A stretch of 64,000 bases of DNA from an uncultured bacterium. GTDB lineage: Bacteria; Patescibacteriota; Doudnabacteria; UBA920. The DNA lies in contig CAVVMJ010000007.1 in assembly GCA_963749445.1 (NCBI GenBank), forward strand, positions 9,971 to 73,970, in the 5' to 3' direction. Within the stretch, counting starts at the first letter, position 1. Each line of letters opens with the position of its first letter. A model generated the notes under the pieces. The model was not told the DNA's origin, ran no database searches, and saw only the letters and a list, made by a program, of their open reading frames with translations. A program made the translations under genes and the position numbers. Below, piece by piece: positions 6,174 through 62,946 of this stretch.

Positions 6174-6235
6174 AAGATTGTGCTTCTAATTATTAAAAGT
6201 TAATTAAACACCAATCAGAATGTCGGAATGTCGAA

Positions 6236-6298
6236 TTAATCGGAGGGGTCATTTCCAAAATTTTTCCAATTTGTTATTAACCGATTAATTTGTTCAGA
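6236..6298 (-). pseudogene. remnant of a four-helix-bundle (Avd / 23S rRNA IVS protein-like) gene, C-terminal about 20 codons only
   Basis: Minus-strand reading EQINRLITNWKNFGNDPSD* matches the C-terminus KQINRLITNWKNFRSDNSD* of the gene at 7966..8350. The adjacent non-coding stretch 6303-6350 matches 8362-8410. Confidence 0.6.
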
Positions 6299-6448
6299 AA
6301 CTAAGACCAATCTTTATTGCCTGTATACGTCCAACTACCCGACCTCCGATATTCTGATTTATCCGATTATTCCGACTTCTGATTCCAAACTCAGGGGCAG
6401 AACCAGTTCCGCCCGAGAGCCCGGAGCCGAAATTTTCGGCCGACCGTT

Positions 6449-7946: not shown

Positions 7947-7965
7947 AATTTTTCGGAAAATCGGA

Positions 7966-8350
7966 TTAATCGGAATTATCGGATCTGAAATTCTTCCAAT
8001 TGGTTATTAGTCGATTAATTTGCTTGGATACTATTTTATAGTGCTTGATTAGTGCTTCGCAGGTTTCGGGTTTAATATTCGGGAAACCAATGAGTTTAAT
8101 TTGTCTTAGATGGGTTATAACTTCATCCGAAGATCCCAACGCAATCCGCAAGTAACGCTTGAATTCTTTTTCCGAATTTCGTTTGGCAAAACCTTCGGTA
8201 ATTTGCGCCGGAACTCCTTTTGCCGCGCCCGTTAACTGGTCTTTTGTCCGAAACTCATTTTTTGGCAACAAATCTGCTAACCGGTAAATCGGCCTAATCA
8301 ACTTCATTGACCTTCTGATAAACCTCTAAATCCTCAACATCCTTTATCAT
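7966..8350 (-). pseudogene. four-helix-bundle protein (Avd / 23S rRNA intervening-sequence protein family), frameshifted near N-terminus
   Basis: Track ORF 7966..8307 reads ...GAAKGVPAQITEGFAKRNSEKEFKRYLRIALGSSDEVITHL. The family N-terminus MIKDVEDLEVYQK is encoded from ATG 8350 in another frame. One extra nt near 8308-8314 separates YQK from SMKLIRPIYRLA. Confidence 0.7.
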
Positions 8351-8394
8351 AATTAAAAAATTAAGACCGGTTTTTATTGCCTATATCCATCCAA

Positions 8395-9978
8395 CTATCC
8401 GACCTCCGATTTATCCGACATTCCGACATTCCGACATTCCGACATTCCGACATTCCGATTTATCCGAATCATACTCGTACTCTGGCTGACGTTTTGGATT
8501 TGCGTCTGCAAAATATATTGGACAATGGCAATGATGCTAAAGGACAGCAAAGCAATGGCTAAACCCAAAATGGCCCAGGTGATGGTCTTGCGCGCGGCCG
8601 TGACCGCCTCTTCGTTGCCCTGGGACATGACGTAGCGGAAGCCACCGATGACTATAAAAGCCACGGACCACAAAGCAATGACGCCCAAAAAGGCGCGCAT
8701 TATCAACAGCAAAGTCGCAGTCAAAGAATCCACGGGCAGGGGGTTATATAAACAATTGTTGGCATCGGGACCGGTACAATTAGCGGTGGAAGGAGTGCCG
8801 GCGGCAGAACATGTCCCTCCCGTGGCGGCTGAACATATCTGCCCGGAACTGCAAGTCCCCTGCTGCCCGGGACCTCCGGTACAAGAAGCACCAGGCGCGA
8901 CAGCCGCGGTCGGACTTACAGTAATATTAAAAGTAGTCGGTCCAACCCCATTTAACGCTGTGGTTCCGTCAGCGGCCACCGGAGTCGCGACAATTGAATT
9001 AACGCCGCTAATATTAAAACCGGAGTTTGCGTCCAAGGTAAAATTTTGGCTCCATTGTTTTGAACTGTCAAGTTTTACATCTTGATTACCCGCGTGCACC
9101 AATAAAATGCCGCCACTGGGCATATTGGTGGCAGAAATTGTTATGGTAGTTCCGGGCGCATAAGTACTATTGGCCGCAGGCGGCGATAAAACAACCGTCG
9201 GCGCGTTACCACTTGCGCCTGTGGCCTGAGTTAAAGTATAAGTTTGATCATAAATTCCCTTGCCGCTACTATCAGTCAGGACAAATCTTAACTTGTTATC
9301 CCCATTGCTAATAAATCCATTTGTGGCATTTACCGCTATTTGGTTGCCGCCTGAGTATATTGCAACAAAGTGATTATTATCGTTGACATAAATGTTTCCC
9401 TGCGCACCGGGCGGAAAATCTGTATAAGTAATTTTTAAGGTATCGCCAATTTTAGCGGTAGGCGGTGAAACTGTAAAGTTAAACCCCTCTCCTAAAGGAT
9501 TATTAGAAACATTTAGCTGTTTTCCCCAATTTTTTGTATCTCCCAAGTCACCCAAACTTGAATGAACATCCAAATAGTAAGGAAAAATGTAATCTGACCC
9601 TGACTTGGTAACATCACTCCAACGGGAAAAATTTGATAAATTAAAAGGGCAGTCAATATTAACATTGTTAGGAACAGGCGGGCTGACCTGGCACCTGGCC
9701 AAATACCAAGGGCTACCACTGATAGGGGCAATAAAATCAAACTCCATGATATTATTGGCACTACAGCCGTTTGTATTAACTATGGTATTAAATTTTGCCG
9801 AATCGCCTTTATAAATTCTGGTTGGAACTGCCTCCATAGAGGTAATTTGCACCTGGCAAATTCCTGCGGCTATTGCAGATTTTATGAATCCACGCCCAAA
9901 AACCCCGGCCAGCATCAATAAAATTATGACGCTGCTTTTTAGTGCGCTTAATATTTTATTGTACTTGTTCTGCGTCAT
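8395..9978 (-). CDS. TrbC/VirB2-like pilin-family protein with about 400-aa N-terminal ectodomain
   Basis: Signal SSVIILLMLAGVFG, a beta-rich repeated ectodomain and a Cys/Gly/Thr linker (CTGGPGQQGTCSSGQICSAATGGTCSAAG). Core is GGFRYVMSQGNEEAVTAARKTITWAILGLAIALLSF. The last about 25 codons run into the CCGACATT tandem repeat. Confidence 0.75.
   Translation of the reverse strand: MTQNKYNKILSALKSSVIILLMLAGVFGRGFIKSAIAAGICQVQITSMEAVPTRIYKGDSAKFNTIVNTNGCSANNIMEFDFIAPISGSPWYLARCQVSPPVPNNVNIDCPFNLSNFSRWSDVTKSGSDYIFPYYLDVHSSLGDLGDTKNWGKQLNVSNNPLGEGFNFTVSPPTAKIGDTLKITYTDFPPGAQGNIYVNDNNHFVAIYSGGNQIAVNATNGFISNGDNKLRFVLTDSSGKGIYDQTYTLTQATGASGNAPTVVLSPPAANSTYAPGTTITISATNMPSGGILLVHAGNQDVKLDSSKQWSQNFTLDANSGFNISGVNSIVATPVAADGTTALNGVGPTTFNITVSPTAAVAPGASCTGGPGQQGTCSSGQICSAATGGTCSAAGTPSTANCTGPDANNCLYNPLPVDSLTATLLLIMRAFLGVIALWSVAFIVIGGFRYVMSQGNEEAVTAARKTITWAILGLAIALLSFSIIAIVQYILQTQIQNVSQSTSMIRINRNVGMSECRNVGMSDKSEVG
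8415..8460. repeat. tandem octamer (CCGACATT) x5 plus partial copy
   Basis: ccgacatt repeated five times from 8415 to 8454, then ccgatt. It forms the 3' tail of the 527-aa pilin ORF. Confidence 0.9.
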
Positions 9979-10485: not shown

Positions 10486-10542
10486 TTTTCTACAATAACT
10501 CTACCACATTTTTGGCAAATTTTCAATTTTTGTCGCTTTGTT

Positions 10543-10619
10543 GAAATTGCGAGGGCGTGCATCCGACCGAAGCAATCCCCAAAAAATAACCGGATTGCTC
10601 CGGCCACCCTCGCAATTTC
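10543..10619. repeat. palindromic element, GAAATTGCGAGG...CCTCGCAATTTC family
   Basis: GAAATTGCGAGGG...GAAGCAATCCCC...GGATTGCTCCGG...CCCTCGCAATTTC. Same termini and core as the copies at 28170, 43436 and 48538. Confidence 0.75.
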
Positions 10620-10727
10620 ATAAAAAACACAACTTTGCAAAAACAACAACTAGTTTCCCAATTTCCAATTTTTCTGTCGTTTTGGCTTTGCATTGGAAAT
10701 TAGTAATTGGGTATTGGAAATTCGCCA

Positions 10728-12024
10728 TCACTGCCCCGCAGTGATTGCGGCCGCTTGTTGTTCGGCTTGACTAAGCGAATCCTGCGCGCTCAACCCGTTT
10801 AAAATTACGTTATCAATCGCCTTGCCGAAAATGTTGTCCATCTTGGCCTGGTCCGGGCGGTAAAAAGATTTAGCGGTAAGGTTGGCGTTGGCAAACACGC
10901 CGATGTCCGGGTCCGGAATTTGCAGCTCAATAAGGTCGCGGCGCGAAGACGGCACTTTGTTTTGCGCGTAATATTGGTCCAGGCTGTCCTTGCTCGTTAA
11001 AAATTTTACCAAATCCCAGGCTGCGGCCAGTTCTTACTCTGTTTGCTCACCACCTCTCCCCAGTAGTTGGCAAAATTCACGGATGGGTTATTCAAATCCG
11101 GCTGCGGCACGCCGGCCACGTCAAAATTCAAATTGGGAGATTTTTGTAAGATGGTGGCGCGACTATAGGAATAGCTGTACAAAAACGCGGCGCGGCCGTT
11201 GGCAAAAGCGTCAATGGAATAATCGCTTTGGGCGTTCCAGTTGTAATTAGGGCTGGAAGGATTGGCAAAAGATGTGTAAAAACTCAAAGCACTGACTCCG
11301 GGATTGGTAAAATTGCCGTTTTTCTGAACCGGGTCGGCAAAAGTCGGCTGCATGCCGGTATAAGGCATGGTGCCCTGCTGCAGCATCATCAAATACAAAA
11401 TATCCACCGCGCGATTGACATTGGCGTTAGTACCTAATGCTACGCCGCTTTGCAAAAAATAACCGTGGCTGTCCTGCCGCTTGATTTTCTGCACATCCGT
11501 TGCCAGCTCGCTCCAGGTCTTCGGCGGCGTGGCAATCCCCGCGCTGCCCATCATATCCTTGTTATAATACAGCGCCAAAGAATCCACGGACATGGCCGCG
11601 CCGTAAATTTTTCCTGGCTGGTAAAATCGTTGACCACCGCGTCCACAAAGGTATCCTTAAAATCCTTCAAAGTAAAAATGGAAGCCGGCGAAGGCGTGGC
11701 TTTGTCCAAATACTGCGGCAGCCAGGCGTTGTTGATGGAAAAAATATCCGGCCCGTTGCCTGCGGCCAAAGCGTTCAGCAAATCCTGCTGGTAAGTGTTA
11801 ATGTCTTTTTTGGTGTAGACGATGGTAATATTGGGATTTTTTTGGCGGTAAGCGTCGAGCAGCGGCTGCAGGCTTTGGCTGTCCATAAACGGATTCCACA
11901 TGGTCAGGGTAATATTCCGCTGAACCGTAGTTGTCCCTCCCCCGCCGCATCCCGCCGCAAGCAAACTAAGGCCGATGGCGGATAAAAGCAATTTTGGTTT
12001 GAAAAATTTTCTTTTTGGTTTCAT
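10728..12024 (-). pseudogene. ABC transporter extracellular solute-binding lipoprotein (family 1), two frameshifts
   Basis: Three track ORFs (11551..12024, 11006..11593, 10728..11012) are consecutive parts of one SBP. Lipobox is LSLLAAGCGG. Junction 1 ...NDFTSQEKFT / PGKIYGAAMSVDSLALYYNKD lies near 11615; junction 2 ...VVSKQSKN / ELAAAWDLVKFLTSKDSL lies near 11030. Confidence 0.8.
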
Positions 12025-12123
12025 ATGCCGCGGATATTCACGCGGATTACTACGCGGATCTACCGCTGACAGCCGCGCCTTCCGCGTCTGATCTGCGTTG
12101 CTATCCGCATTTAATCCGCAATT

Positions 12124-13038
12124 TTAAATTTTTAGACCTTTTAAAAATTTGCCAAACTCTTCCCTCAAATCCTCGTGTTTAAGTCCGAATTCCACCACGG
12201 TCTTTAAATACTCCAGCTTGTTGCCGCAGTCGTAATATTTGCCTCCTTTAATCTCCAGGGCGTGGCACGGCTTGCCTTTTTCCAGCAAAATATTGACGGC
12301 GTCAATGTAAACCAGCTCTTTCGGCGTGTTGTCCTCCTTTACCCGCCACATGGCTTCCTCAATAGCGCCAAACATTTCCGGCCCGTAAACCGCTCCGGAA
12401 ATCACCGCGTAGTCGGAATCAATTCTGCCGGGCCCGGGTTTTTCTATCAACCGGTCAATTTTCAAAAGCCCCGGCTTGATTTCTTTGCCGACCGCGTAAC
12501 CGTAGCGCTTGTAATCTTCGTCTTTGTTCATCCGAATGCTGGCCAGCATGGCGCTGGAATCGCTTGAGCCAAAAGCTTCCACCAATTGCCGGCTCCGCGA
12601 AGGCTCGGCTTCTATAAAATCATCTCCCCACAAAACCAAAAACGGCTCATTGCCAACAAAGTCCCGCGCGTTCCAAATCGGCGTGGCATTGCCCAGCGGC
12701 CCTTTTTGCCGGACAAAATAAAAGTTGGCCATGTTGGCGATGTTGCGGATTTGTTCCAGCTCCTCGTATTTGTTGGCTTCTTCCAACCGTTTTTCCAGTT
12801 CAAACGGATAGTCAAAATGGTCCTCAATGCTGCGCTTGCTCTGGCCGGTGACGATAATGATGTCTTCAATGCCCGCGCTCACCGCGTCTTCCACCACGTA
12901 CTGAATAATTGGCTTATCCACTATGGGCAGCATCTCCTTTGGCTGGGCTTTGGTGGCCGGCAAAAACCTGGTCCCATACCCCGCCGCCGGAATAATAGCT
13001 TTTCTGATTTTCTTGTTCATGATGATATTATACATCAA
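12124..13038 (-). CDS. galU: UTP--glucose-1-phosphate uridylyltransferase
   Basis: AIIPAAGYGTRFLPATKAQPKEMLPIVDKPIIQYVVEDAVSAGIEDIIIVTG is the GalU signature. The likely start is MNKKIRK at 13020. Confidence 0.85.
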   Translation of the reverse strand: MMYNIIMNKKIRKAIIPAAGYGTRFLPATKAQPKEMLPIVDKPIIQYVVEDAVSAGIEDIIIVTGQSKRSIEDHFDYPFELEKRLEEANKYEELEQIRNIANMANFYFVRQKGPLGNATPIWNARDFVGNEPFLVLWGDDFIEAEPSRSRQLVEAFGSSDSSAMLASIRMNKDEDYKRYGYAVGKEIKPGLLKIDRLIEKPGPGRIDSDYAVISGAVYGPEMFGAIEEAMWRVKEDNTPKELVYIDAVNILLEKGKPCHALEIKGGKYYDCGNKLEYLKTVVEFGLKHEDLREEFGKFLKGLKI

Positions 13039-13041
13039 CTT

Positions 13042-13122
13042 CTACTAAATACGAAAGTGGCTAAAAATACTAAACTTATGGTTTATAAGTTTAGTATTTT
13101 TAGATAATTTAGTATTTAGTAA
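13042..13122. terminator. long nested hairpin built from ACTAAAT-type words
   Basis: A perfect 19-bp stem: CTAAAAATACTAAACTTAT (13061-13079) with ATAAGTTTAGTATTTTTAG (13085-13103). It is nested in outer arms TACTAAATAC / GTATTTAGTA. Lies downstream of comM and upstream of galU. Confidence 0.5.
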
Positions 13123-13125
13123 AGA

Positions 13126-14631
13126 TTATTCCGTCTTCGGGCGGTACTGAATGGCTTCGGACAGATGTTTGATGATGATATTCTCGCTGCCGTCCAAGTC
13201 GGCTATGGTGCGGCTAACTTTGAGTAGGCGGTGCATGCTGCGGCCGGAAAAATTGTAGCGTTGCATGGCGGTTTTCATCAGCTGCTGGCCGGCCTGGTCC
13301 AGCCGGCAAAATTCCTTCAGCTCCACCAAGCTCATTTCGCTGTTGGTCTTGGCGCGGCCATAACGCGCGGTTTGGATTTCCCGTGTGCGCTCCACGCGCA
13401 GTTTAATATCGGCTGATTTTTCACCGGCTTCAGGCTGCGACATTTTATCGTAAGAAAGGCGCGGCACTTCCACGTGCAAATCAATGCGGTCAAGCAATGG
13501 ACCGGAAATTTTTTTCTGGTATTTAAAAATCTGCCCGGGGGTGCAGGCGCACGGCTTGCTGCCGTCGCCCAAATAGCCGCACGGGCAGGGATTCTGCGCC
13601 GCTATTAGAGTAAACTTGGCCGGAAAAGTAAAACTGCCCGAGGCGCGCGCCACAGTGACCACGCCGTCTTCCAACGGTTGCCGCAGCGCTTCCAAAACAT
13701 TGCGCGGAAATTCCGGAAATTCATCCAAAAATAAAATTCCCCGATGGGATAACGTCACTTCCCCGGGTTTAGGGTTGGCGCCGCCGCCCACCAACGCCAC
13801 GTTGGAAGTAGTGTGGTGCGGGCTGCGCACCGGCCGGCTGGCCACAAACGAACCGGTTAGCTTTCCCGCAATGCTGTAAATTTTGGTCAGCTCCAAAGCC
13901 TCTTCCAAAGCCAAATCCGGCAACAGGCCGGCCATGGCGCGGGCCAGCAAAGTCTTGCCGCTGCCCGGCGGGCCCGAAAGCAGCACATTATGCCCGCCAG
14001 CGGCCGCGATTTCCAGCGCCCGCTTGGCCAGTTCCTGCCCGGCAATATCGCTCATGTCCAAAGCCGGCGCGGGATTAATTAAAATTTTCTCCAAATCAAT
14101 AGGCGGCTGTTTGGTCAAATTGCCGCTGCCTAACAAATGCTCCAATAACCCTTTCAGGTGGGCCACCGGAAAAATTTTCAGTCCACTAACCAGCGCCGCT
14201 TCCCGGGAATTTTCCCGGGGCACAAAAATTTCCTTAAACCCCAATTCTTTGGCCCTAAGCGCCGCGGCCAAAACCCCGGGCACCGGCCTGACCTGTCCGT
14301 CCAGGGACAATTCTCCCAAAAACAGTTTACCTTTGCCGTCAAAACTGATTTGCTCCGAGGCCGACAAAATCGCCAAGGCAATCGGCAAATCAAACTGCGT
14401 GCCCAACTTTGGCACGTCGGCCGGCGCCAAATTCACGGACACGCGCGTCGGCGGATAAAAACAGCCGGAATTTTTTATCGCCGCCTTGACGCGCTCGCGG
14501 CTTTCCTGCACCGCCGTATCCGCCAGCCCCACGACAACCGTAGCCGGAAGTCCGTTAGTAATGTCAGCTTCCGTTTCCACCAATTCCGCGCCCAAGCCCA
14601 CCACGGCCGCGGAATAAATTCGCGCGATCAT
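13126..14631 (-). CDS. comM: YifB/ComM family Mg-chelatase-like ATPase
   Basis: N-terminal Lon-like domain MIARIYSAAVVGLGAELVETEADITNGLP, Walker A LSGPPGSGKTLLARAM, and C-terminal ...HRLLKVSRTIADLDGS. Confidence 0.9.
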   Translation of the reverse strand: MIARIYSAAVVGLGAELVETEADITNGLPATVVVGLADTAVQESRERVKAAIKNSGCFYPPTRVSVNLAPADVPKLGTQFDLPIALAILSASEQISFDGKGKLFLGELSLDGQVRPVPGVLAAALRAKELGFKEIFVPRENSREAALVSGLKIFPVAHLKGLLEHLLGSGNLTKQPPIDLEKILINPAPALDMSDIAGQELAKRALEIAAAGGHNVLLSGPPGSGKTLLARAMAGLLPDLALEEALELTKIYSIAGKLTGSFVASRPVRSPHHTTSNVALVGGGANPKPGEVTLSHRGILFLDEFPEFPRNVLEALRQPLEDGVVTVARASGSFTFPAKFTLIAAQNPCPCGYLGDGSKPCACTPGQIFKYQKKISGPLLDRIDLHVEVPRLSYDKMSQPEAGEKSADIKLRVERTREIQTARYGRAKTNSEMSLVELKEFCRLDQAGQQLMKTAMQRYNFSGRSMHRLLKVSRTIADLDGSENIIIKHLSEAIQYRPKTE

Positions 14632-14706
14632 TTTTGAATGGAATTATGAATCAAAAATTATGAATCATGGGCCAAATCCCCTAATTCTTAATTCCTGATT
14701 CCTGAT

Positions 14707-15150
14707 TCAATCTTTATCCGCAATTCCCTTTTTATTCCAACCGGATGAGAAAAATAAAATAACTATGCCAATAATAATATATCCGTCCGCCAAATTATAA
14801 ACCCCCACCCACTTCCAAAAATGGATATAAATAAAATCCCGGACGTAACCCAAAACCAAGCGCTCGCCGACGTTCAAAGCGGCACCGGTAAAAATCAACA
14901 GCCAGGCCAAACTCTGCCCAAAACTAAATTGCCGAAAGTTTTTTGTACAATAAATTACCATGCCCAAAATTACCACAGCGTAAATTGTAAACATCAATCC
15001 GTTCGGCAGCGGCAGGCTGAACGCGAATTGCCTGTTCAAAAATTGATGGCTGACGATTTTTTTGGAGGCTTGATCAAAAACAATCAACAAAGCAAACAAA
15101 AAAACACCCAGCCCCCAAAAGCTCCTGGATGTTTTTTGAAAATTTTCCAT
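14707..15150 (-). CDS. lspA: lipoprotein signal peptidase II
   Basis: Four TM segments. Has FDQASKKIV and the C-terminal VRDFIYIHFWKWVGVYNLADGYIIIGIVILF motif (FNxAD). Confidence 0.8.
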   Translation of the reverse strand: MENFQKTSRSFWGLGVFLFALLIVFDQASKKIVSHQFLNRQFAFSLPLPNGLMFTIYAVVILGMVIYCTKNFRQFSFGQSLAWLLIFTGAALNVGERLVLGYVRDFIYIHFWKWVGVYNLADGYIIIGIVILFFSSGWNKKGIADKD

Positions 15151-15172
15151 TCCGGATTCTGAAATGAATGCT

Positions 15173-15268
15173 TTCCATTTCGACCGAATGCACCTGAGGG
15201 AGAAATCTATTAACTTCTAACTTCGGATATTAACGGATCTCTCCTCGACTGCACTCGTCGAGATGGGA
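15173..15268. repeat. CCATCCCGA-type imperfect palindromic element (family X)
   Basis: Left half TTCCATTTCGACCGAATGCACCTGAGGGAGAAATC is mirrored by GGATCTCTCCTCGACTGCACTCGTCGAGATGGGAA. Related copies at 38231, 57900 and 62440. Confidence 0.6.
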
Positions 15269-15284
15269 AAAAATATGCTAAGTT

Positions 15285-16486: not shown

Positions 16487-18799
16487 TTAATCACCTTTGG
16501 TCAGCCTAATCCTAAAAAGAGATTTTAAATGGTTCTGATATAATTCCTTATATTTAAAAGCTTTTTTTGCATCTAGAATTATAATTTGTTTCAATTTGGC
16601 TGTATAAAAAAATCGCAGTAAACTTTGAAAGTCATACATGCTCCGCGGCAAGAAAAACTCCCTATCCGGATCAGCAGACTTTTGAGCCAAAGCTTTGCTA
16701 TAAGGATCAGCTACTTTCATACTTGGCCACTGCGAAAAAATGACGGTTTTTGCCTGCAATTGGGCCACCGGCTGGACCTGCTGGACGGAGCGCAAAAAAT
16801 TTAAAACCCCGCTGCTGCTTATTAAAAGCAAGCTGTCTTTATGGATACTGAAATTGCGGAACAGTCTGTTGCTTCCTCCGCCGCTGCGTTCAACCAATAA
16901 AAACGCGCGCTTTTTCAGTTCTCCGTAATATTCTTTGTAAAGCTTCGTAATTTCCGCCGGCGAGTCAAACACCATTACTGCCGGCAAGTCGGCTTTGCTT
17001 AAAATTTTGACGGGATTTGAATCGACGGCCGGCGTAATCCGGCAAATCGGCTGATGATGCAGAATTCCGACTAATTTGCTTCGTAATTTTTTTACCGGCC
17101 ATGGTATCAAAGAAAATTTCCCCATACCGAGGCGATTAATAAAATAGTCGAGCGCGACTTGTTCTCCTTGCGGTTCAATGACGCAAACCTTTTCAAAGCC
17201 TGAAAAACTTTTGCCAACGATGCCGCCAATATCTAGCGGCAAGGAATGGAAACTGCAGGAACGCTCCCCAAAACTTATCCATTTTACTTCCGTAGGCCTA
17301 TCCTCAAAAAAATCCTTGAGGTTACTGGCAAAGTCCGTGAGGCTTTGGAGCTTTAAACTTTGGTTTGCCGATGATAACTTTTCCGTAAAATTTTCCGCGG
17401 CACTCATAATCTTTAAAAATTCTTCGGAATTTCTTAATTCATCCGTTACGCTCACTTCGCCCCAGCCTTTGTTAAATTTTAACAATAGCGCGTTGGTCAA
17501 ACCAAAAAATAAATCCGCGTCCGAAAGCAATCGGCTGATAATATCTCTATATTCGGCATCGCCAAAGCCGGTTTCCGGATCGTAAACGGTTTTTAATAAA
17601 TAAGATAAAAAGCCCCAGCTGCTGCGCTGCCCAATAGTAGCCGTGATTACGGCCTCAAAATCACCAAGACCGATAACAATCAGGCCGCGCTGGCGGAATA
17701 GCTCGGAACTTTTCAATTCTAAAAAAGTTTGCTGGTCGCAACATAACACCCTATCGGGTAATTTCTCCGGCAGTTGCCGGCCTGAAACCAAACCCTGAAA
17801 CTGACCGCCGAAAAATGACAGATTCAAATCCAACAAGCACTCCGTTTGCCAATTTGTGGCCTGCCAAACCAAAAGCTTCATTAAAAACCTAGCCTGCTCC
17901 GGATTTTGGATGTCCTGATGAAGCAGTACTTCAAATTTTTGGCGGTCAAACATATGCCGCGGCTGGAAAATTCCCCGCGCCAAATTTTGCCGCCATGTTT
18001 CCAAAACCTGATAGCGCTTGGGTACCACAATCAGCAGTCGCTCGGCTGTCCGGCTGACAATTTGCCCGATAATATCCTCAACGGGAACAAAAGGGTCAAC
18101 GATGTAAACCGTTTTGTCCTGCATAACAACAGAGCCCAAGCGTGATTTAGCCACTGATATTTTTTTGACTGGTTTGGCTGGCTCTAATTTGTAGGGTTTG
18201 ATTTTTGCTTTTAACAAATCCGACCACGGAGCCTTGACGCGTTCCGCCAGTCCGGTAATCTGGGTCTTAGCTTCGTTGGGCAAACTTTGATAAACGCCGA
18301 GCAGCCGCTCCAGCAACTCCATGGATGCCATGGCGTCCGCCAAAGCGCGGTGCGCGTTTTTGTGCGAAATTTTAAAAATACTCGCCAAATTTTCCAAATT
18401 GTAACTATGATGCGTAGGCAGCAAAAACTGCACCAAGTCCATAGTGTCAATTACCGGCCCGAAAAATTTTATGCCGCACTTTTGCAAAAACTTAATGTCA
18501 AAACCCACGTTATGCCCAACTATCGCCGCCGTCCCCAGCTTCCCCTGCAAAAAAAACAGCTCGTCCGAAATCGCGCCGCCTTTTTCTAGGTCGGCTGATG
18601 TGAGTCCAGTCAGTCCCAAAACATGGTGCGACACCTCGCCCTTTGGCTTAAACACCCTGTCCCATTTTTCAACAATCCGAAATCCGAAATCCGAAATCCG
18701 AAATCCGGCTATCCCCACTTCCAAAATCTCATTGGTTACCGGGTCAAACCCGCTCGTCTCAATATCCAAGCTGTAATAAATTTTTTCTTGATTTGCCAT
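16487..18799 (-). CDS. DnaQ-like 3'-5' exonuclease fused to a DinG-like C-terminal region
   Basis: DEDDh motifs YYSLDIETSGFDP, GHNVGFDIKFL and HRALADAMA. About 560 aa follow in which I see no Walker A. ATG 18799 (MANQEK) avoids overlap with the upstream TrmB gene (the track start 18844 overlaps it). Confidence 0.75.
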   Translation of the reverse strand: MANQEKIYYSLDIETSGFDPVTNEILEVGIAGFRISDFGFRIVEKWDRVFKPKGEVSHHVLGLTGLTSADLEKGGAISDELFFLQGKLGTAAIVGHNVGFDIKFLQKCGIKFFGPVIDTMDLVQFLLPTHHSYNLENLASIFKISHKNAHRALADAMASMELLERLLGVYQSLPNEAKTQITGLAERVKAPWSDLLKAKIKPYKLEPAKPVKKISVAKSRLGSVVMQDKTVYIVDPFVPVEDIIGQIVSRTAERLLIVVPKRYQVLETWRQNLARGIFQPRHMFDRQKFEVLLHQDIQNPEQARFLMKLLVWQATNWQTECLLDLNLSFFGGQFQGLVSGRQLPEKLPDRVLCCDQQTFLELKSSELFRQRGLIVIGLGDFEAVITATIGQRSSWGFLSYLLKTVYDPETGFGDAEYRDIISRLLSDADLFFGLTNALLLKFNKGWGEVSVTDELRNSEEFLKIMSAAENFTEKLSSANQSLKLQSLTDFASNLKDFFEDRPTEVKWISFGERSCSFHSLPLDIGGIVGKSFSGFEKVCVIEPQGEQVALDYFINRLGMGKFSLIPWPVKKLRSKLVGILHHQPICRITPAVDSNPVKILSKADLPAVMVFDSPAEITKLYKEYYGELKKRAFLLVERSGGGSNRLFRNFSIHKDSLLLISSSGVLNFLRSVQQVQPVAQLQAKTVIFSQWPSMKVADPYSKALAQKSADPDREFFLPRSMYDFQSLLRFFYTAKLKQIIILDAKKAFKYKELYQNHLKSLFRIRLTKGD
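18677..18707. repeat. tandem heptamer (CCGAAAT) x4 inside the exonuclease CDS
   Basis: ccgaaat x4 (18677-18704) plus ccg. Encodes GFRISDFGFRI between exonuclease motifs I and II. Confidence 0.9.
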
Positions 18800-20728: not shown

Positions 20729-21832
20729 TTATTCCGCCGCGTCTTCTTCCTCGGCCGGCTTGGCGGCCACAACGACTTCGCTTTCTTTGACGCGCTTACG
20801 CACTTCGGCATCTATTTCTTTAAAAACTTTGGGAGTTTCTTTAAGGAAAGCTTTGGCATTCTCGCGGCCCACGCCCAATTTAACGTCTTTGAACATAAAC
20901 GTGTTGCCGTTCTTTTCTATGGCGCCAATTAACACGCCGGTATCCAGCAAATCGCCGGAAGCGGAAATGCCTTCGTTGTACATAATGTCAAATTCCGTGG
21001 TGCGGAAAGGCGGCGCCACTTTGTTTTTGACGACTTTGACCTTAACGCGGTTGCCCACAACCTTGTCGCCGTTTTTGATTTGCGCCGACCGGCGGACTTC
21101 TATCCTGATTGAAGCGTAAAACTTAAGCGCGTTGCCGCCGGTGGTGGTTTCCGGATTACCGAACATCACGCCGATCTTCATACGGATCTGGTTAATGAAT
21201 ACCACGGTGGTCTGAGTTTTGCTGATGATAGCCGTAAGCTTGCGCAAAGCCTGCGACATTAGCCGCGCGTGCAAGCCCATATGGCTGTCGCCCATTTCGC
21301 CCTCAATTTCGTTGCGCGGGGTCAGCGCGGCCACGGAATCAATCACGATTAAATCCAAGCCGTTTGAGCGCACCAAAGTTTCGCAAATATCCAAAGCCTG
21401 CTCGCCGTTGTCCGGCTGGCTAATCAACAAATCTTCCAGTTTGACGCCGATGCGCTTGGCATACTCCGGATCCAGCGCGTGCTCGGCGTCTATAAACGCG
21501 GCGAGTCCCCCGCGCTTTTGCACTTCCGCGATCATATGCAAGGTCAAAGTGGTTTTGCCCGAACTTTCCGGACCGTAAATTTCAATGACGCGGCCTTTGG
21601 GAAAACCGCCCACGCCCAGAGCCAAATCCAAAGAAATGGAACCCGTGGGAATGGAAGCCACGTCCATAGTTCTGGAATCAGACAACTTCATGATGCTGCC
21701 AGCGCCGAACTTTTCCTGGATTTGGTCCATGGCGCTGGTCACGGCCTTCCATTTGCCTGTCTCGGGCTTAGCCGAGGAACCGGAATCCGCCGGCGCGGTT
21801 TTTGGTGTTGGTTTGGTCATAAATTTGCTCAA
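20729..21832 (-). CDS. recA: recombinase RecA
   Basis: [20 protein letters not shown] (Walker A), [17 protein letters not shown], and an [31 protein letters not shown]2 region. Confidence 0.97.
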
Positions 21833-22014
21833 ATTCTAATTTCTAAAGCCTAAAATCTAAACAATATTCAAATCCCAAATTTTCAAAGTTTAAACTGTTT
21901 GATATTTTGGGTTTTAGAGTTTGTTTAAAATTTAGCGTTTCGATTTTAGATTTTAATGATTACTTATATAGTATACAATCGTTCACCATATGTCAAATAA
22001 TCCCTGTGGATAAT

Positions 22015-22968: not shown

Positions 22969-23050
22969 AAATTAATTGAACAAGATTGACATGATTGATC
23001 AAGATTGACAAGATTGCCATTCCCAAATCATGCTCAATCTTTTAATTCTT

Positions 23051-25276
23051 TTAAATCTTGTCAATCTCTTCTATTCCATACTCCGCCTTCTCATCCCGCG
23101 GCACTACCCCATAGACTTCCCTCGGTTTGGCTCCCTCGCCAGGGCCGATGATTCCTCTCCCTTCCAAAATATCCAAAACCCGCGCCGCGCGCGCGTAACC
23201 GATTTTCAAACGCCGCTGCAGCAGCGAGGCGCTGGCTTTGCCCGCGCGCCGCACTTCTGCTATGGCTTCTTCCAAAAGCGGCTCATCATCATCGCCTTCG
23301 CCTTCAAATCCGGGCACGCCAATTCCCCGCTTGGGCTTTTCCAATATCGCCTCATTATAAATAACCGCACCGGTCTGCTGCTTAAAAAAATCCACCACGC
23401 GCCTGACTTCTTTTTCGCCGACGAACGCGCCCTGGATACGCCGCGGCTTGTTGAATTCCGCGGAAATATAGAGCATATCGCCGTTGCCCAAAAGTTTTTC
23501 CGCGCCGCTACTGTCCAAAATGGTGCGGCTGTCAATCTGGCTGGCCACGGCAAAGGCAATGCGCGAGGTAATGTTGGCCTTAATCAAACCAGTGATAATA
23601 TCCACGGACGGGCGCTGGGTCGCCACCACCAAATGGATGCCCACGGCGCGCGCCATTTGCGCCAAACGCACAATGGCCGCTTCCACGTCGACCTGGGCCA
23701 CGGCCATCAAATCGGCCAACTCATCCACCAAAATCACAATGTACGGCAATTTCAAACTTATTGCTTCATTGTATTCAATGATGTTGCGCTTGTTGGCTTC
23801 GGACAAAAGTTTATAACGGCGGTCCATTTCGGCAACCGCCCACTTTAAGGCATTGACCGCTTTCTCATGGTCAATGACCACGGGCGTCAGCAAATGCGGG
23901 ATGCCGTTGTACAAATTCAGCTCCACCCTTTTGGGGTCAATGACAATAAATTTAACGTCCTGCGGCGTGTTGCGGTAAAGCAGCGAAATAAATAAAGAAT
24001 TGATGGCCACGCTCTTACCCGTGCCCGTGGCGCCGGCGATAAGCAAGTGCGGCATCTTGGCCAAGTCCGCCACCATGGGCCGGCCGGCCACGTCGCGGCC
24101 CAAAGCCATGGCCAGCTTGCTCTTGTGATCCACAAAATCTTTGGTCTGCATGACCTCGCGAAGGCGCACGATGGCCGTGGCTTTGTTAGGCACTTCAATG
24201 CCCACCAAGGCCTTGCCCGGGATCGGCAATTCCATGCGGATGCTGTGCGCGGCCAGGGCCAAAGCCAAATCGTTCTGCAAAGTGGCGATCTGCGACAATT
24301 TTACCCCCACTGTCGGCCGCAAAGTGTATTGCGTCACCGTAGGCCCGACATTAACCTCGCCCATTTCCACTTCAATGCCAAAATCCGCCAAAGTTTTTTT
24401 AATAATGGCCACATTGGCCTCAATGTTACCGCTGTCCACCGCGGTCTGGTTGTCATCCAACAAATCAAACGTCGGCAGTTTCCAGTCTTTGCGCTCCAGC
24501 GGCAGGGTTTCAATCTGCGGGCCTTTGGATTTTTGATTGGTGTTAATAACTGTGCCTTTGGGTTTTTCCGGCTCATCCTGTTCTTCCTCATCTCCAACAA
24601 TGGCCTGGTTTTTGCCGGCCACCTTTTCGCTCACAAACCCCTGCGTACCCATGGCATTAATCTTCAATGTAGGCAAAGCGGTTTGCGCGACCGCGGTTGA
24701 TTCGGCAGGCTCTTCTTTTGATTTAGAAAAGAACGCGCGCAGCGATATGTCAAAAGCAATTAAGATGCCAATGACCAATAAGGCAAATAGCACCAAACTG
24801 CCCGCCCAAAAACCCAAAAAATTATAGGCAGGCGAGGCAAAAATCGCGCCAAAATAACCGCCGGCGCGGCCCTGGGACGCCAAATCAAACGCGCTCGCGC
24901 CATTGCCCAAACTAAAAATATGGATTAACCCCGTAATGCCCCCAATCAGCAAAATCGCGCCAAGATAAGTCCGCGCATAAGCGCCGCGGTGCTCCAGCTG
25001 TTCATCCGTTTGCCGATAAAGCAGCACAGCCACCATAATCAAAAGCAGCGGCACAATGTAAACCATCACCCCGAACATTTGCGCCAAAAAGCCAAATAAA
25101 GACGCGCCGAAACTGCCGGCCAAATTTGCCAAACCGAGCAAACAAACAAGCGCCAAAACCACAAACACCACCACTACAATCCCGCGCTTGGTTTCGGCGG
25201 ATAAATTTAAAGTCGGCTTCTCGCGCCTTTTCTTGGCCTGCCTTTCTTCTTCCTTGTCTTTTTTGTTTCTCGCCAT
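23051..25276 (-). CDS. ftsK: DNA translocase FtsK/SpoIIIE
   Basis: N-terminal TM helices, Walker A LLIAGATGTGKSVAINS, VILVDELADLM, ATQRPSVDIITG, and a C-terminal gamma wHTH ASASLLQRRLKIGYARAARVLDILE. Confidence 0.95.
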   Translation of the reverse strand: MARNKKDKEEERQAKKRREKPTLNLSAETKRGIVVVVFVVLALVCLLGLANLAGSFGASLFGFLAQMFGVMVYIVPLLLIMVAVLLYRQTDEQLEHRGAYARTYLGAILLIGGITGLIHIFSLGNGASAFDLASQGRAGGYFGAIFASPAYNFLGFWAGSLVLFALLVIGILIAFDISLRAFFSKSKEEPAESTAVAQTALPTLKINAMGTQGFVSEKVAGKNQAIVGDEEEQDEPEKPKGTVINTNQKSKGPQIETLPLERKDWKLPTFDLLDDNQTAVDSGNIEANVAIIKKTLADFGIEVEMGEVNVGPTVTQYTLRPTVGVKLSQIATLQNDLALALAAHSIRMELPIPGKALVGIEVPNKATAIVRLREVMQTKDFVDHKSKLAMALGRDVAGRPMVADLAKMPHLLIAGATGTGKSVAINSLFISLLYRNTPQDVKFIVIDPKRVELNLYNGIPHLLTPVVIDHEKAVNALKWAVAEMDRRYKLLSEANKRNIIEYNEAISLKLPYIVILVDELADLMAVAQVDVEAAIVRLAQMARAVGIHLVVATQRPSVDIITGLIKANITSRIAFAVASQIDSRTILDSSGAEKLLGNGDMLYISAEFNKPRRIQGAFVGEKEVRRVVDFFKQQTGAVIYNEAILEKPKRGIGVPGFEGEGDDDEPLLEEAIAEVRRAGKASASLLQRRLKIGYARAARVLDILEGRGIIGPGEGAKPREVYGVVPRDEKAEYGIEEIDKI

Positions 25277-29367: not shown

Positions 29368-29372
29368 AATCT

Positions 29373-29473
29373 CTACTAAATACTAAAGAATACGAAAGGT
29401 ACTAAATACGAAACTTAATGGCATGCTGATAGTTTCGTACATTTTAGTATTTCGTATCTTTAGTATTTAGTAG
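29373..29473. terminator. about 40-bp imperfect hairpin built from ACTAAAT/ACGAAA words
   Basis: CTACTAAATACTAAAGAATACGAAAGGTACTAAATACGAAACT faces AGTTTCGTACATTTTAGTATTTCGTATCTTTAGTATTTAGTAG. Lies downstream of the SH3 gene on the minus strand. Confidence 0.5.
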
Positions 29474-29536
29474 AAAAACAAGTCCCATCCCGACCAACCG
29501 GCCAAGACGGGACATATCAAACTTTATATTAAATTC

Positions 29537-42706: not shown

Positions 42707-42882
42707 TTATGAAAATAACGATGAACAATTAACCATTCACGATTAACCATTTATGTTCGGGTTAATTGTCAATCGTAAATTGTTAATTGTATTTGGGTAT
42801 TTTACTGGTTTTGATTGATTTCGGCAAGAGCCAATCCCCTATTGCGTCACATTGACCTTATATTGCTGGCCGTTGGGCAAAG

Positions 42883-46462: not shown

Positions 46463-46576
46463 ATAAATTACAAAAAATCCACTTGGTTTTAAAAACCCCT
46501 CTTTACCAAAAAGGGGATTAAATGGGTTATCTGCGGTTATCCGTATATCCGTATCCTATCCGTACTCCGTAGACGT

Positions 46577-57227: not shown

Positions 57228-57371
57228 AAATAGTAGCGTTCCCAAATATACAAATCAACACAAATATACAAATTACTGACAGTGCTATAGATTTGTATAT
57301 TTGTTAAAATTTGTATATTTGCGATTACTACAATTATAGCATTTGAAAGGATTTGAACGCAAGCCGCCGGA

Positions 57372-58562: not shown

Positions 58563-58662
58563 ATAGCGATACTAATATACGAATGCATACGAATGATACT
58601 AATAATACGAATTCGTATTATTCGTTTCATTAGTATCAATTAGTATACTGGTATCTTTTAAT

Positions 58663-62517: not shown

Positions 62518-62880
62518 ATGAGACCAGTAAAAAAAGACACCAACCGCATTGCCAAGGTCAATTCGCTAATTAGGCGCGAGTTGGGACCGATTTTGTTAGT
62601 GTTTTTACAGGGGATGGAGGGATTAGTGACCATTACCAAAGCCGACACCAGCAAGGATATGAAGTGGTGCAAGGTTTGGATTTCCATTTTGGGCGGAGAT
62701 GATGATAAAATTTTAGGTTATCTTGCAAAAAATATTTACGACATCCAGGGCGAGCTGAATAAATATTTTTTCACTAAAATTATCCCGCGGATTTCCTTTC
62801 ACCTGGATACCAGCCCAAGGTACGCGCAGCATATTGATGAAGTGATACGGAAGATACACGATGAAGAAGAGACAATTTAA
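62518..62880 (+). CDS. rbfA: ribosome-binding factor A
   Basis: RIAKVNSLIRRELGPIL...VTITKADTSKDMKWCKVWISIL...IPRISFHLDTS. Canonical position after infB. Confidence 0.9.
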   Translation: MRPVKKDTNRIAKVNSLIRRELGPILLVFLQGMEGLVTITKADTSKDMKWCKVWISILGGDDDKILGYLAKNIYDIQGELNKYFFTKIIPRISFHLDTSPRYAQHIDEVIRKIHDEEETI

Positions 62881-62946
62881 GAATTACGGATTGCGGATTA
62901 CGAATTCGTAATGCGCAATCCGTAATTAATAATTCCTATTAAGTTA

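What the first reader, a model, noticed from the sequence alone, without database searches (positions are those of the whole stretch)
12025..12123. Intergenic hairpins assembled from locus-specific short words in direct and inverted arrays
Many gene ends are followed by long imperfect hairpins made from one repeated 6-9-mer and its reverse complement. The word differs from locus to locus.
- 12025-12123: CGCGGAT at 12029, 12041 and 12053 (12-nt period) faces ATCCGC(G) at about 12081, 12103 and 12114.
- 13042-13122 and 29373-29473: ACTAAAT/ACGAAA words.
- 22975-23067: AAGATTGAC versus TCAATCTT.
- 21840-21960: TCTAAA/TTTAGA.
- 14640-14706: ATGAATCA and TTCCTGATTC.
- 46520-46575: ATCCGTA.
- 57240-57330: CAAATATACA.
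- 58561-58640: ATACGAAT/ATACTAAT.
- 62880-62935: ATTACGGATTGCG.
- 63962-63993: TTGACATAATT.

They sit where terminators are expected but mostly lack U-tracts. Their word-array construction is not what point-mutation drift of a hairpin would give.
Basis: seen in the sequence. Interest (0 to 1): 0.5.

Follow-up and report, generated by a model that had tools for sequence, protein, structure and literature searches.

The report
Gene-less relics of intervening-sequence cassettes
The odd hairpins between genes in this candidate-phyla-radiation bacterium are real. They are most likely the paired ends of tiny selfish cassettes, the kind called "intervening sequences" when they sit in ribosomal RNA genes, and most copies have lost their small gene; they are not transcription terminators.

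Summary
The window comes from a Candidatus Doudnabacteria (CPR/Patescibacteria) genome.

**Observation.** It holds up. The window has 18 long inverted repeats against 0.18 expected. Ten of the eleven listed sites fold far better than shuffles. About ten hairpins have arms built from repeated 6-9-mers.

**Terminator reading.** It does not hold up:
- None has a U-tract.
- One hairpin lies downstream of the conserved recA promoter, one in a divergent spacer and one just upstream of a tRNA.
- Relatives have 0-17 nt spacers at the same gene junctions.

**What they are.**
- The window holds a full cassette at 7950-8470: word array, four-helix-bundle gene (PF05635, the rRNA "intervening sequence protein"), inverted word array.
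- It also holds an internally deleted copy (6214-6383) that looks like just another hairpin.
- The focal hairpin (12025-12123) sits where a relative carries a GxxExxY-gene cassette. The arms share the same 12-nt period and nearly the same word.
- All ten independent cassettes examined are flanked by inverted word arrays (p = 6e-8). One of these lies inside a 16S rRNA gene. The same holds for four of six non-CPR four-helix-bundle genes checked on plasmids, one apparently in an Azospirillum 23S gene.
- The Coxiella 23S intervening sequence is published with heptamer repeats and RNase III excision.

RNase III processing of these stems is inferred, not shown.

The parts
12025..12123 (-). Focal hairpin between the stop of the NTP-transferase gene (12124-13038, -) and the ATG (12024) of a lipoprotein solute-binding gene. 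Read on the - strand, the 5' arm has GCGGAT-type words, the centre reads ACGCGGAAGGCGCGG, and the 3' arm has ATCCGCG x3 at a 12-nt period.
   Evidence: dG -45.2, z -4.7. The 3' arm aligns in register with the 3' arm of the L041 GxxExxY cassette and its L045 remnant. The centre matches the array upstream of a Sphingomonas GxxExxY gene.
7950..8470 (-). Full cassette. The 5' arm at 8470-8396 holds (A/T)GTCGGAA / AAATCGGA octamers, about 8 copies. A roughly 60-nt leader follows, then a four-helix-bundle gene at about 8350-7966 whose N-terminus is frameshifted. The 3' arm at 7985-7950 holds TCCGAT(A/T)A x4 and abuts the ATG of the next pilin gene.
   Evidence: Pfam PF05635 E = 3.6e-17. NCBIfam TIGR02436 E = 1.8e-19. 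Sequence read. Flank complementarity score 45 against a control median of 25.
6214..6383 (-). Internally deleted copy of the same cassette. It keeps the same 5' arm and leader, only the last ~22 codons of the gene, and the 3' arm. My scan scored it as a 170-nt hairpin.
   Evidence: tblastn finds IVP residues 92-113 at 77% identity at 6239-6304. 6215-6246 is 91% complementary to 8403-8434.
13034..13129 (-). TACTAAA/TACGAAA-family hairpin that fills the whole ComM-to-NTP-transferase spacer. Its termini are CTACTAAATAC...GTATTTAGTAG.
   Evidence: z -9.5. The termini are shared with 29372-29474 and with L048 and L043 at other junctions.
29372..29474 (-). Second TACTAAA/TACGAAA-family hairpin. It lies just downstream of a canonical terminator at 29513-29482.
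   Evidence: (z -10.7).
14638..14711 (-). Hairpin in the LspA-to-ComM spacer, built from ATGAATCA / AATTCCTGATTC words.
   Evidence: p 0.004-0.012; z -5.2. It shares TAATTCTTAATTCCTGATTC-type words with the arms of the L064 four-helix-bundle cassette. The two genes overlap, with no spacer, in L038 and L039.
21831..21954 (-). Hairpin in the recA 5' leader, downstream of the conserved promoter and LexA-like box at about 21961-22014.
   Evidence: z -4.0.
22974..23075 (-). Hairpin in the FtsK-to-RodZ spacer, built from AAGATTGAC / TCAATCTT words.
42712..42803 (-). Hairpin built from ATTAACC / GTTAATTG words, 6 nt upstream of tRNA-Ala (42633-42706, -).
   Evidence: z -4.4.
57229..57335 (.). Hairpin built from CAAATATACAAAT words. 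It lies in the divergent spacer between a MurA-like gene (55123-56694, -) and a DUF4446 gene (57372-57881, +).
   Evidence: (z -7.6).
58568..58655 (+). Hairpin built from ATACGAAT / ATACTAAT words, between the bactofilin gene and a DAGK-like gene. The L001 ortholog spacer also holds a hairpin, made from different words (TAATTA / TTATCA).
   Evidence: z -5.8.
62877..62932 (+). Hairpin built from TTACGGA / TTGCGGA / TTACGAA words, between rbfA and a DHH-family gene.
   Evidence: (z -8.8).
46520..46575 (.). Direct TATCCGTA array only. It is not a significant hairpin and lies next to the end of an IS256-family element.
   Evidence: z -0.56.

Best explanation
The hairpins are the two ends of small selfish cassettes of the type known as rRNA intervening sequences.

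**Architecture.** A complete cassette has three parts:
1. A left array of a 7-12-nt unit whose 5-7-nt core word is typical of the cassette lineage.
2. A small gene, either a four-helix-bundle S23p/IVP protein (PF05635/TIGR02436) or a GxxExxY protein (PF13366/TIGR04256).
3. A right array that is the reverse complement of the left one.

**State in this genome.** Most copies have no gene. In at least one this is through internal deletion. The two arrays then lie next to each other and read as a 55-170-nt imperfect hairpin with 20-40 pairs. The focal hairpin is the gene-less counterpart of a GxxExxY cassette that a relative carries at the same gene junction.

**How it most likely works (inferred).**
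- When a host transcript runs through a copy, the arrays pair into a long double-stranded RNA stem. RNase III cuts this stem, as shown for intervening sequences in 23S rRNA.
- This would explain why copies are tolerated inside operons, 5' leaders, next to tRNA and tmRNA genes, and in rRNA.
- Because each arm is a run of the same word, unit gain and loss by slippage changes stem length without destroying pairing.

**Shown.** The architecture, the homology of hairpin arms to cassette arms, the deletion derivative, presence/absence variation among relatives, and the features that argue against a terminator.

**Inferred.** RNase III cleavage, slippage dynamics, the way cassettes move, and any role for the encoded protein.
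For: 1. The window holds both a full cassette (7950-8470) and an internal-deletion copy (6214-6383). The copy keeps the arms, the leader and the last 22 codons.
2. At the focal junction, L041 carries ACGCGAA(T) x4, then a GxxExxY gene, then (A)TTCGCG x4. L045 keeps the last 22 codons (77% identity) plus the 3' arm. The window's 3' arm aligns with both in the same 12-nt register. L038 and L042 have 11- and 17-nt spacers that keep only the last unit.
3. All 10 independent cassettes (9 PF05635, 1 GxxExxY, from several CPR lineages) score >= 45 for complementarity between the upstream and downstream flanks. The 208 control genes have a median of 25 and a 95th percentile of 34.6. Mann-Whitney p = 6e-8.
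4. The word family follows the protein subfamily to non-orthologous loci:
   - TCGGA words occur with the L043-type protein at the pilin locus (window, L043, L047, L042) and between tmRNA and a tRNA in L137.
   - TTTC(C/A)AA words occur with the L041-type protein, including L081 in a distant lineage.
   - ACGCGAAGG occurs with GxxExxY genes in L041 and in Sphingomonas, and at the focal centre.
5. A 54%-identical homolog sits inside a 16S rRNA gene (L129). It is flanked by GACGGAA/GACAGAA arrays and their complement.
6. An Azospirillum copy with the same words lies in unannotated sequence that reads like 23S rRNA; I did not verify that placement.
7. The Coxiella 23S intervening sequence is published with tandem GACAGAT heptamers of strain-variable number next to the S23p gene. 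It has a 28-bp terminal stem, and RNase III cuts within that stem (PMC4990558, read).
8. Four-helix-bundle genes on Nostoc (two species) and Riemerella plasmids are also flanked by inverted heptamer arrays.
9. The TACTAAA family has conserved termini at four loci in three genomes.
10. Hairpins come and go at fixed junctions among relatives.
Against: - Most gene-less hairpins (13034, 22974, 29372, 57229, 58568, 62877) have no detectable gene remnant. No gene-bearing relative was found for them, so they are assigned by shared architecture only.
- The focal hairpin has no remnant of the GxxExxY gene. The gene could instead have inserted into a pre-existing hairpin.
- The empty sites in L038 and L042 still contain one copy of the word. 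This also fits growth of the arrays in place from a local seed.
- Perfect heptamer arrays occur inside ordinary genes, in frame and with no length change against orthologs. The cassette model does not explain these. They hint at a genome-wide array-making process.
- Some cassettes outside the CPR have direct rather than inverted flanking arrays (Pseudanabaena, Prevotella, Persicobacter). One (Calothrix) has none.
- No transcript data were available, so RNase III cleavage is untested. I did not check that this genome has RNase III.
- No target-site duplication or mobility enzyme was identified.
Confidence: 0.62

Rival explanations
1. The hairpins are transcription terminators or 3'-end stabilisers of an unusual U-tract-less type. 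They are selected at gene ends, as REP elements protect upstream mRNA in E. coli.
For: Most lie within 0-10 nt of an upstream stop codon. The stems are long and stable. Classic GC-stem plus T-tract terminators are only modestly more common than chance in an 20-kb stretch: 43 found against 30.6 +/- 5.3 expected.
Against: - No hairpin has a U-tract.
- One hairpin is inside the recA leader, downstream of the conserved promoter, in the genomes compared.
- One is in a divergent spacer and one lies 5' of a tRNA.
- One follows a canonical terminator.
- The focal hairpin leaves no room for a promoter before the next ATG.
- Relatives have 0-17-nt spacers or overlapping genes at the same junctions.
- There is no G-U bias on the sense strand.
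- AT-rich arrays carry stop codons, so any gene reading into one ends quickly. This may be why the hairpins appear to start at stop codons.
Confidence: 0.12
2. No mobile element is involved. The arrays are made in place by repeated replication slippage and strand or template switching, seeded by a short local sequence. Small genes then insert preferentially into the resulting hairpins.
For: - Empty sites in relatives keep exactly one copy of the word.
- The copy number and orientation of the same word differ among orthologous junctions.
- Perfect in-frame heptamer arrays lie inside conserved genes, 4 against 0.07 expected.
- At the same MurF codons, L001 has the reverse-complement word of the window's array.
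- Copy number varies between strains in Coxiella.
Against: - The same word family accompanies the same protein subfamily at non-orthologous loci and across phyla: GACAGA/GACGGA in Coxiella, Azospirillum and Uhrbacteria; ACGCGAAGG in Sphingomonas and Doudnabacteria; TCGGA in L137.
- The TACTAAA family has conserved termini at different junctions in different genomes.
- The deletion derivative at 6214-6383 shows that at least one hairpin arose from a gene-bearing cassette.
Confidence: 0.18
3. The word arrays are binding sites for host DNA-binding proteins, that is, operator or iteron-like arrays regulating the neighbouring genes.
For: In the focal hairpin the words are better conserved than the spacers between them. 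The 12-nt period is close to one helical turn.
Against: There are at least eight different word families in 64 kb of a small genome with few regulators. The arrays are absent from the same junctions in relatives. The arrays flank selfish genes and occur inside rRNA genes.
Confidence: 0.03
4. The hairpins are TIGR or CRISPR-like guide RNA arrays, which are known from CPR bacteria.
For: The organism is a CPR bacterium. TIGR arrays are described as poorly conserved in sequence.
Against: TIGR arrays are 5-15 tandem 36-nt units with alternating edge and loop repeats, next to a Nop-domain Tas gene (PMC12045711). Here the periods are 7-12 nt, each site has two inverted half-arrays, and no Nop-domain gene appeared among the roughly 50 window ORFs scanned.
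Confidence: 0.01

Closest known systems
Intervening sequences (IVS) of bacterial rRNA genes that carry an S23p / four-helix-bundle gene (Coxiella, Leptospira, Brucella; gene-less in Salmonella)
   Same: - Complementary termini form a long stem.
- The loop may hold a PF05635 gene, which decays readily.
- Tandem heptamer repeats of variable number lie next to the gene (GACAGAT in Coxiella, PMC4990558).
- Gene-less versions of about 100 nt exist.
- Distribution is sporadic.
- A 54%-identical homolog of the Doudnabacteria cassette protein (the L043 query) lies in a CPR 16S rRNA gene with word-array arms.
   Different: - The elements here lie between protein-coding genes, in 5' leaders and next to tRNA and tmRNA genes, not in rRNA helices.
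- They occur at about 3-6 per 10 kb.
- Arms made entirely of word arrays, with the word tracking the protein subfamily, have not been described in the papers I could search.
- RNase III excision is not shown here.
Heptamer tandem repeats of cyanobacteria (STRR) and the TAACTGA-type intergenic arrays of Beggiatoaceae, Cyanobacteria and Bacteroidetes (PMC4679880)
   Same: - Both are intergenic arrays of 7-nt units, 2-6 or more copies, often abutting start codons.
- Relatives have shorter spacers without the arrays.
- No mechanism is known.
- The taxa overlap with those where I found four-helix-bundle genes flanked by heptamer arrays: Nostoc and Riemerella.
   Different: Those arrays are described mainly as direct repeats of one genome-wide word. 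They were not linked to a cassette gene or to hairpins. Here there are many word families, arranged as inverted pairs.
REP/BIME, ERIC and Correia-type palindromic elements and MITEs
   Same: All are small intergenic palindromic DNA, co-transcribed with neighbouring genes, gene-less, and present or absent between relatives. From my own knowledge, Correia elements are RNase III substrates.
   Different: Those families have many near-identical copies with a fixed consensus. They are mobilised by a known transposase (RAYT or IS). Here copies are few per family, the arms are arrays of short words, and the associated genes are not transposases.
Intrinsic (Rho-independent) terminators
   Same: A stem-loop just after a stop codon.
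   Different: There is no U-tract. The stems are 20-40 pairs, AT-rich and full of internal loops. Several lie where termination would block an essential downstream gene.

Membership tests
rRNA intervening sequence (IVS) element | Inserted in an rRNA gene (classically helix 25 or 45 of 23S) | tested here: not met
   The focal hairpin and all window copies lie between protein or tRNA genes. Rfam finds no rRNA in the window. A homologous cassette in L129 is inside a 16S rRNA gene.
rRNA intervening sequence (IVS) element | Complementary termini that form a stable stem | tested here: met
   for the hairpins. for the gene-bearing cassettes (scores 45-91 against a control median of 25).
rRNA intervening sequence (IVS) element | Loop may carry an S23p / four-helix-bundle (PF05635) gene | tested here: met
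   The gene is at 7966-8350 and a remnant at 6239-6304. For the focal site the gene in the orthologous cassette is GxxExxY (PF13366), and no remnant survives in the window.
rRNA intervening sequence (IVS) element | Tandem heptamer repeats beside the gene, variable in number (Coxiella, PMC4990558) | tested here: met
   The units here are 7-12 nt.
rRNA intervening sequence (IVS) element | Excised from the transcript by RNase III | not testable with these tools
   No transcript data were available. I did not check for RNase III in this genome.
Intrinsic terminator | GC-rich stem followed by a U-tract | tested here: not met
   At most 5 T in the 10 nt after any stem. Most stems have 5-10 GC pairs out of 20-40.
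Intrinsic terminator | Lies at the end of a transcription unit | tested here: not met
   The sites include the recA leader, a divergent spacer, the 5' side of a tRNA, and operon joints that are 0-17 nt long in relatives.
REP / REPIN | Many near-identical 20-40-nt palindromes per genome, with a RAYT (Y1 transposase) gene | tested here: not met
   All-against-all BLAST of 82 hairpins from 8 loci gave 10 similar pairs, only three of them within a single locus. No Y1 transposase appeared among the roughly 50 window ORFs scanned. L001 does have a REP-like palindrome present 3 times, and L039 has a Y1_Tnp gene.
REP / REPIN | GTAG or CGTC tetranucleotide at one end (PMC3733652, abstract only) | tested here: inconclusive
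   The TACTAAA family ends in CTAC...GTAG. The focal hairpin and the other families do not.
MITE | Terminal inverted repeats, target-site duplication, and a parent element that encodes a transposase | tested here: inconclusive
   Inverted ends and gene-less deletion derivatives are present. No target-site duplication was seen, and the parent genes are not known transposases.
TIGR array | 5-15 tandem 36-nt units with edge and loop repeats beside a Nop-domain Tas gene | tested here: not met
   Periods are 7-12 nt. No Nop-domain hit appeared.

The most novel reading that the evidence does not exclude
Heptamer-array arms together with a four-helix-bundle or GxxExxY gene form one previously unrecognised class of tiny mobile cassette, spread across bacterial phyla.
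- The arrays would be the cis sites that the cassette protein recognises, so word and protein co-evolve.
- A copy that lands in an rRNA gene is what has been called an intervening sequence.
- Gene-less relics would account for the unexplained heptamer tandem repeats of cyanobacteria (STRR), Bacteroidota and Beggiatoaceae, as well as for the intergenic hairpins of CPR genomes.
- The same activity might also write the in-frame heptamer arrays seen inside ordinary genes.
Probability: 0.25. Interest if true: 0.8.

Novelty: new variant of a known kind. Interest (0 to 1): 0.6.

Why it matters
- About one intergenic spacer in three in this reduced genome holds one of these structures, so they shape operon transcripts, leaders and gene boundaries in an uncultured lineage.
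- Tying them to intervening-sequence cassettes gives a concrete, testable prediction of RNase III processing at defined stems.
- It suggests that rRNA intervening sequences are only the best-known landing site of a much broader element family.
- The link between two small "hypothetical" gene families and flanking heptamer arrays was seen here in CPR, Cyanobacteria, Bacteroidota and Proteobacteria. It offers a lead on two old puzzles: where intervening sequences come from, and what makes heptamer tandem repeats.
- For annotation, these stems should not be called terminators. The arrays can also falsely extend or truncate neighbouring ORFs.

Tried and rejected
- A local-MFE scan with an energy threshold gave 352 multibranch "hits" and was useless. 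I replaced it with a single-hairpin alignment scan.
- Rfam at gathering thresholds found only four tRNAs in the window.
- The sense-against-antisense stability test for RNA-level selection gave no signal, 20 against 19.
- An exact-protein look-up of the window's ComM found nothing. The closest relative (89%) had no DNA available.
- The single metagenome scan returned only two relatives above 70% identity, so recent gain and loss events could not be watched.
- MAFFT alignment of the 5' arms was uninformative because of the repeats.
- The 9-10-mer ACGCG(G)AAGG is not rare in itself: 14 hits in 3.2 Mb counting both strands. Only its position beside GxxExxY genes is informative.
- BLAST of long-range inverted repeats missed most split arrays. 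A word-cluster search worked better but has many low-complexity false positives.
- TIGR arrays, integron attC sites (the neighbours are housekeeping genes) and operator arrays were considered and set aside.
- The literature searches found no description of these hairpins in CPR genomes, and no general link between heptamer arrays and these genes beyond Coxiella. The library covers only open-access papers, so prior description elsewhere cannot be excluded.

Full report
**Source and setting.** The largest gene of the window, a P-type ATPase, is 82% identical to one in a Candidatus Doudnabacteria genome, and the other hits are Patescibacteria. ComM homologs gave six syntenic Doudnabacteria loci: L038, L039, L041, L042, L043 and L045. 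L001 is syntenic with window 40-61 kb. The focal stretch 12025-12123 lies on the transcribed (-) strand. It sits between the stop of an NTP-transferase gene and the ATG of a lipoprotein solute-binding gene.

- The focal 99 nt fold to -45.2 kcal/mol (- strand) and -40.6 (+ strand), with z about -4.7 on both. None of 200 shuffles does as well.
- Three CGCGGAT words at a 12-nt period pair with three ATCCGC words. The spacers between words form internal loops.
- Across the window, a single-hairpin alignment scan finds 18 inverted repeats scoring >= 45, against 0.18 in block-wise dinucleotide shuffles. Nearly all lie between genes.
- Nine of the ten other listed sites fold significantly better than shuffles (z from -2.5 to -10.7). 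46520-46575 does not (z -0.56) and is only a direct array.
- Word repetition within arms exceeds shuffles in about ten hairpins.
- None has a T-rich tail.
- The words are not strictly locus-specific. The TACTAAA/TACGAAA family, with termini CTACTAAATAC...GTATTTAGTAG, marks hairpin ends at two window loci and at other junctions in L048 and L043. That is 5 hits against 0.7 expected.

**Are they terminators?** The positions say no.
- In the RodZ-recA spacer, a block with TTATCCACA, a TTGACA-17-TACTAT promoter and a GAAC...GT box recurs in the relatives compared. The hairpin lies downstream of it, in the recA leader, with a different sequence in each genome.
- 57229-57335 is in a divergent spacer.
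- 42712-42803 is 6 nt upstream of a tRNA.
- 29372-29474 follows a canonical terminator.
- At the focal junction L038 and L042 have 11 and 17 nt. At the LspA-ComM junction the genes overlap in L038 and L039.
- Sense and antisense strands are equally stable in 42 hairpins with known orientation (20 against 19, p = 0.32). The symmetry is therefore at the DNA level, with no G-U signature.

**The cassette link inside the window.** Read on the - strand, 8470-8396 is an array of (A/T)GTCGGAA / AAATCGGA octamers. A four-helix-bundle gene follows (PF05635 E = 3.6e-17; TIGR02436 E = 1.8e-19). Then 7985-7950 is the inverted array TCCGAT(A/T)A x4, which runs into the gene's last codons and ends at the next gene's ATG. 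A second copy at 6383-6214 has the same left array and leader, only the last 22 codons of the gene (77% identity), and the right array. My scan had listed this copy as a 170-nt hairpin. So at least one hairpin is a gene-bearing cassette that lost its gene.

**The focal hairpin.**
- At the same junction L041 has ACGCGAA(T) x4, then a GxxExxY gene (TIGR04256, E = 1e-27), then (A)TTCGCG x4.
- L045 keeps the last 22 codons of that gene (77% identity) and the right array.
- The window's right arm aligns with both in the same 12-nt register, down to the ATG of the next gene.
- The short spacers of L042 and L038 correspond to the last unit only.
- The centre of the focal hairpin, ACGCGGAAGGCGCGG, matches ACGCGAAGGCGCGAGG directly upstream of a GxxExxY gene inserted between fabD and fabG in Sphingomonas. 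The motif alone is not rare, so this is supporting evidence only.

**Generality.**
- Profile and tblastn searches of all fetched loci found ten independent cassettes. All have complementary flanks, with scores of 45-91. The 208 control genes have a median of 25 and a 95th percentile of 34.6; p = 6e-8.
- The word family follows the protein subfamily:
  - TCGGA goes with the L043-type protein, including a copy between tmRNA and a tRNA in L137.
  - TTTC(C/A)AA goes with the L041-type protein, including the distant L081.
  - AATTAGGA / ATGAATTA goes with the L064 protein. These are the words of the window hairpin at 14638-14711.
- A 54%-identical homolog lies inside a 16S rRNA gene of an Uhrbacteria genome. 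It is flanked by GACGGAA/GACAGAA heptamers and their complement.
- Outside the CPR, four-helix-bundle genes on plasmids of two Nostoc species and Riemerella are flanked by inverted heptamer arrays. So is an Azospirillum copy in unannotated sequence that reads like 23S rRNA, which I did not verify and which again has GACGGA/GACAGA words. One Pseudanabaena copy has direct arrays and one Calothrix copy has none.
- GxxExxY genes in Prevotella, Persicobacter and a Fusobacteria plasmid have direct repeats on both sides.

**What is published.** The Coxiella 23S intervening sequence is a 428-nt selfish element with an S23p gene in the loop. It has a 28-bp terminal stem, which RNase III cuts in the middle. 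It carries two or three tandem GACAGAT heptamers, strain-variable in number, next to the gene (PMC4990558). PF05635 genes have been noted in CPR rRNA insertions, without mention of repeats (PMC11270868). Heptamer arrays in Beggiatoaceae, Cyanobacteria and Bacteroidetes are described as unexplained (PMC4679880). In the searchable library I found no paper linking these genes to flanking word arrays in general, and none describing gene-less copies between protein genes.

**Mechanism.** I commit to the following, with about 0.6 confidence for identity and about 0.4 for the RNase III step.
- The hairpins are the paired word-array ends of intervening-sequence-type cassettes, and most are gene-less.
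- In a read-through transcript they form 20-40-pair double-stranded stems that RNase III cuts. This makes insertions in operons, leaders and stable-RNA genes tolerable.
- Arrays change length by slippage without losing pairing.
- How the cassettes move is unknown, as is whether their proteins recognise the words.

**What does not fit.**
- Perfect heptamer arrays lie inside ordinary genes, in frame. The exonuclease array has no length change against orthologs:
  - AATCCGA x4.9 in the RNase T-like exonuclease, where the encoded GFRISDFGFRI aligns without gaps to orthologs.
  - GAATTGC and ATTGACG in an alpha/beta hydrolase.
  - An octamer array in MurF, where L001 has the reverse-complement word at the same codons.
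- Empty sites keep one word.
- These points keep alive a rival in which arrays are written in place by a slippage and template-switch process (about 0.18). The two ideas may both be partly true.

**Verdict.** The terminator reading is not supported. The structures are best filed as a new variant of a known kind, namely intervening-sequence-type cassettes and their gene-less relics outside rRNA. There is a broader, untested lead that connects two small gene families with heptamer repeat arrays across phyla.

Noticed in passing
window 18674-18707, 41695-41720, 42221-42247, 41158-41193: Perfect 7-8-nt tandem arrays lie inside ordinary genes (an RNase T-like exonuclease, an alpha/beta hydrolase, MurF) and are translated in frame. 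Orthologs align across the exonuclease array with no gap. L001 has the reverse-complement word at the same MurF codons. The arrays at 41172 and 42239 are inverted relative to each other and bracket the hydrolase gene. There are 4 perfect arrays against 0.07 expected.
   Followed up: partly
window 21961-22014 (- strand): Upstream of recA there is a DnaA-box-like TTATCCACA, then a TTGACA-17-TACTAT promoter overlapping a GAACGATTGT LexA-like box. The block recurs in the Doudnabacteria genomes compared.
   Followed up: partly
L039 11170-11184, L041 11665-11680, L043 11640-11657, L045 2220-2236: The spacers upstream of the NTP-transferase gene end with a conserved CGTATTATAATA only 5-8 nt before the start codon. 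This suggests a leaderless mRNA. The window has CGTATTTAGTAG at that place, as part of the hairpin arm.
   Followed up: no
window 11006-12024, 38891-40091, 40110-41571, 41618-42394, 8307-8350: Several genes are split into two reading frames: the solute-binding protein, D-Ala-D-Ala ligase, a MurF-like ligase (a GTGAAGTGAAGTG duplication sits at the break), the alpha/beta hydrolase, and the N-terminus of the four-helix-bundle gene. These are either indel errors of the assembly or pseudogenes.
   Followed up: no
window 45435-46462: An IS256-family transposase gene (45832-46446; NF048019, E = 1e-67) is bounded by 25-nt inverted repeats at 45435-45459 and 46438-46462.
   Followed up: partly
window 6447-6544, 10530-10632, 15172-15269; L045 7000-7590; L042 17329-17432 and 20491-20590: A GC-richer palindromic element family has the form GTCATT(C/G)CGAGG...GGAATCCCTT...AAGGGATCCCTCGG...CTCGGGATGAC. 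In L045 four copies flank a GIY-YIG gene, and the whole set is nested inside TCGGA word arms.
   Followed up: partly
window 56906-57008; L041 114-229; L045 2086-2190: Another palindromic family, TTATAAGTT..GGCGGCCAGT...ACTGGCCGCC..AACTTATAA, is present at three different gene junctions in three genomes. This implies mobility.
   Followed up: no
L001 2113-2165, 12437-12477, 15357-15395: The related genome carries a REP-like perfect palindrome, ACAATGGGCACCATTGTGCAGCACAATGGTGCCCATTGT, three times in 22 kb. The window has no copy.
   Followed up: no
L150 (Pseudanabaena galeata plasmid) 385-1062: A four-helix-bundle gene sits between cas6 and cas4. It is flanked by CTAAAAG x14 upstream and CCAAAAG x10 downstream, both in direct orientation.
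   Followed up: no
L085 2700-3134: In another CPR genome, TACTAAT/TACGAAT word arms (the same family as window 58568 and 13043) flank a ~380-nt insert with no long ORF. The insert has a promoter-like TATAAT and GC-rich stems, so it may be a non-coding RNA cargo.
   Followed up: no
L137 2010-3400: TCGGAT/ATCCGA arrays occur at four places. They bracket smpB, the tmRNA gene and the four-helix-bundle gene in turn, so arrays can flank ordinary genes and stable RNA genes as well.
   Followed up: no
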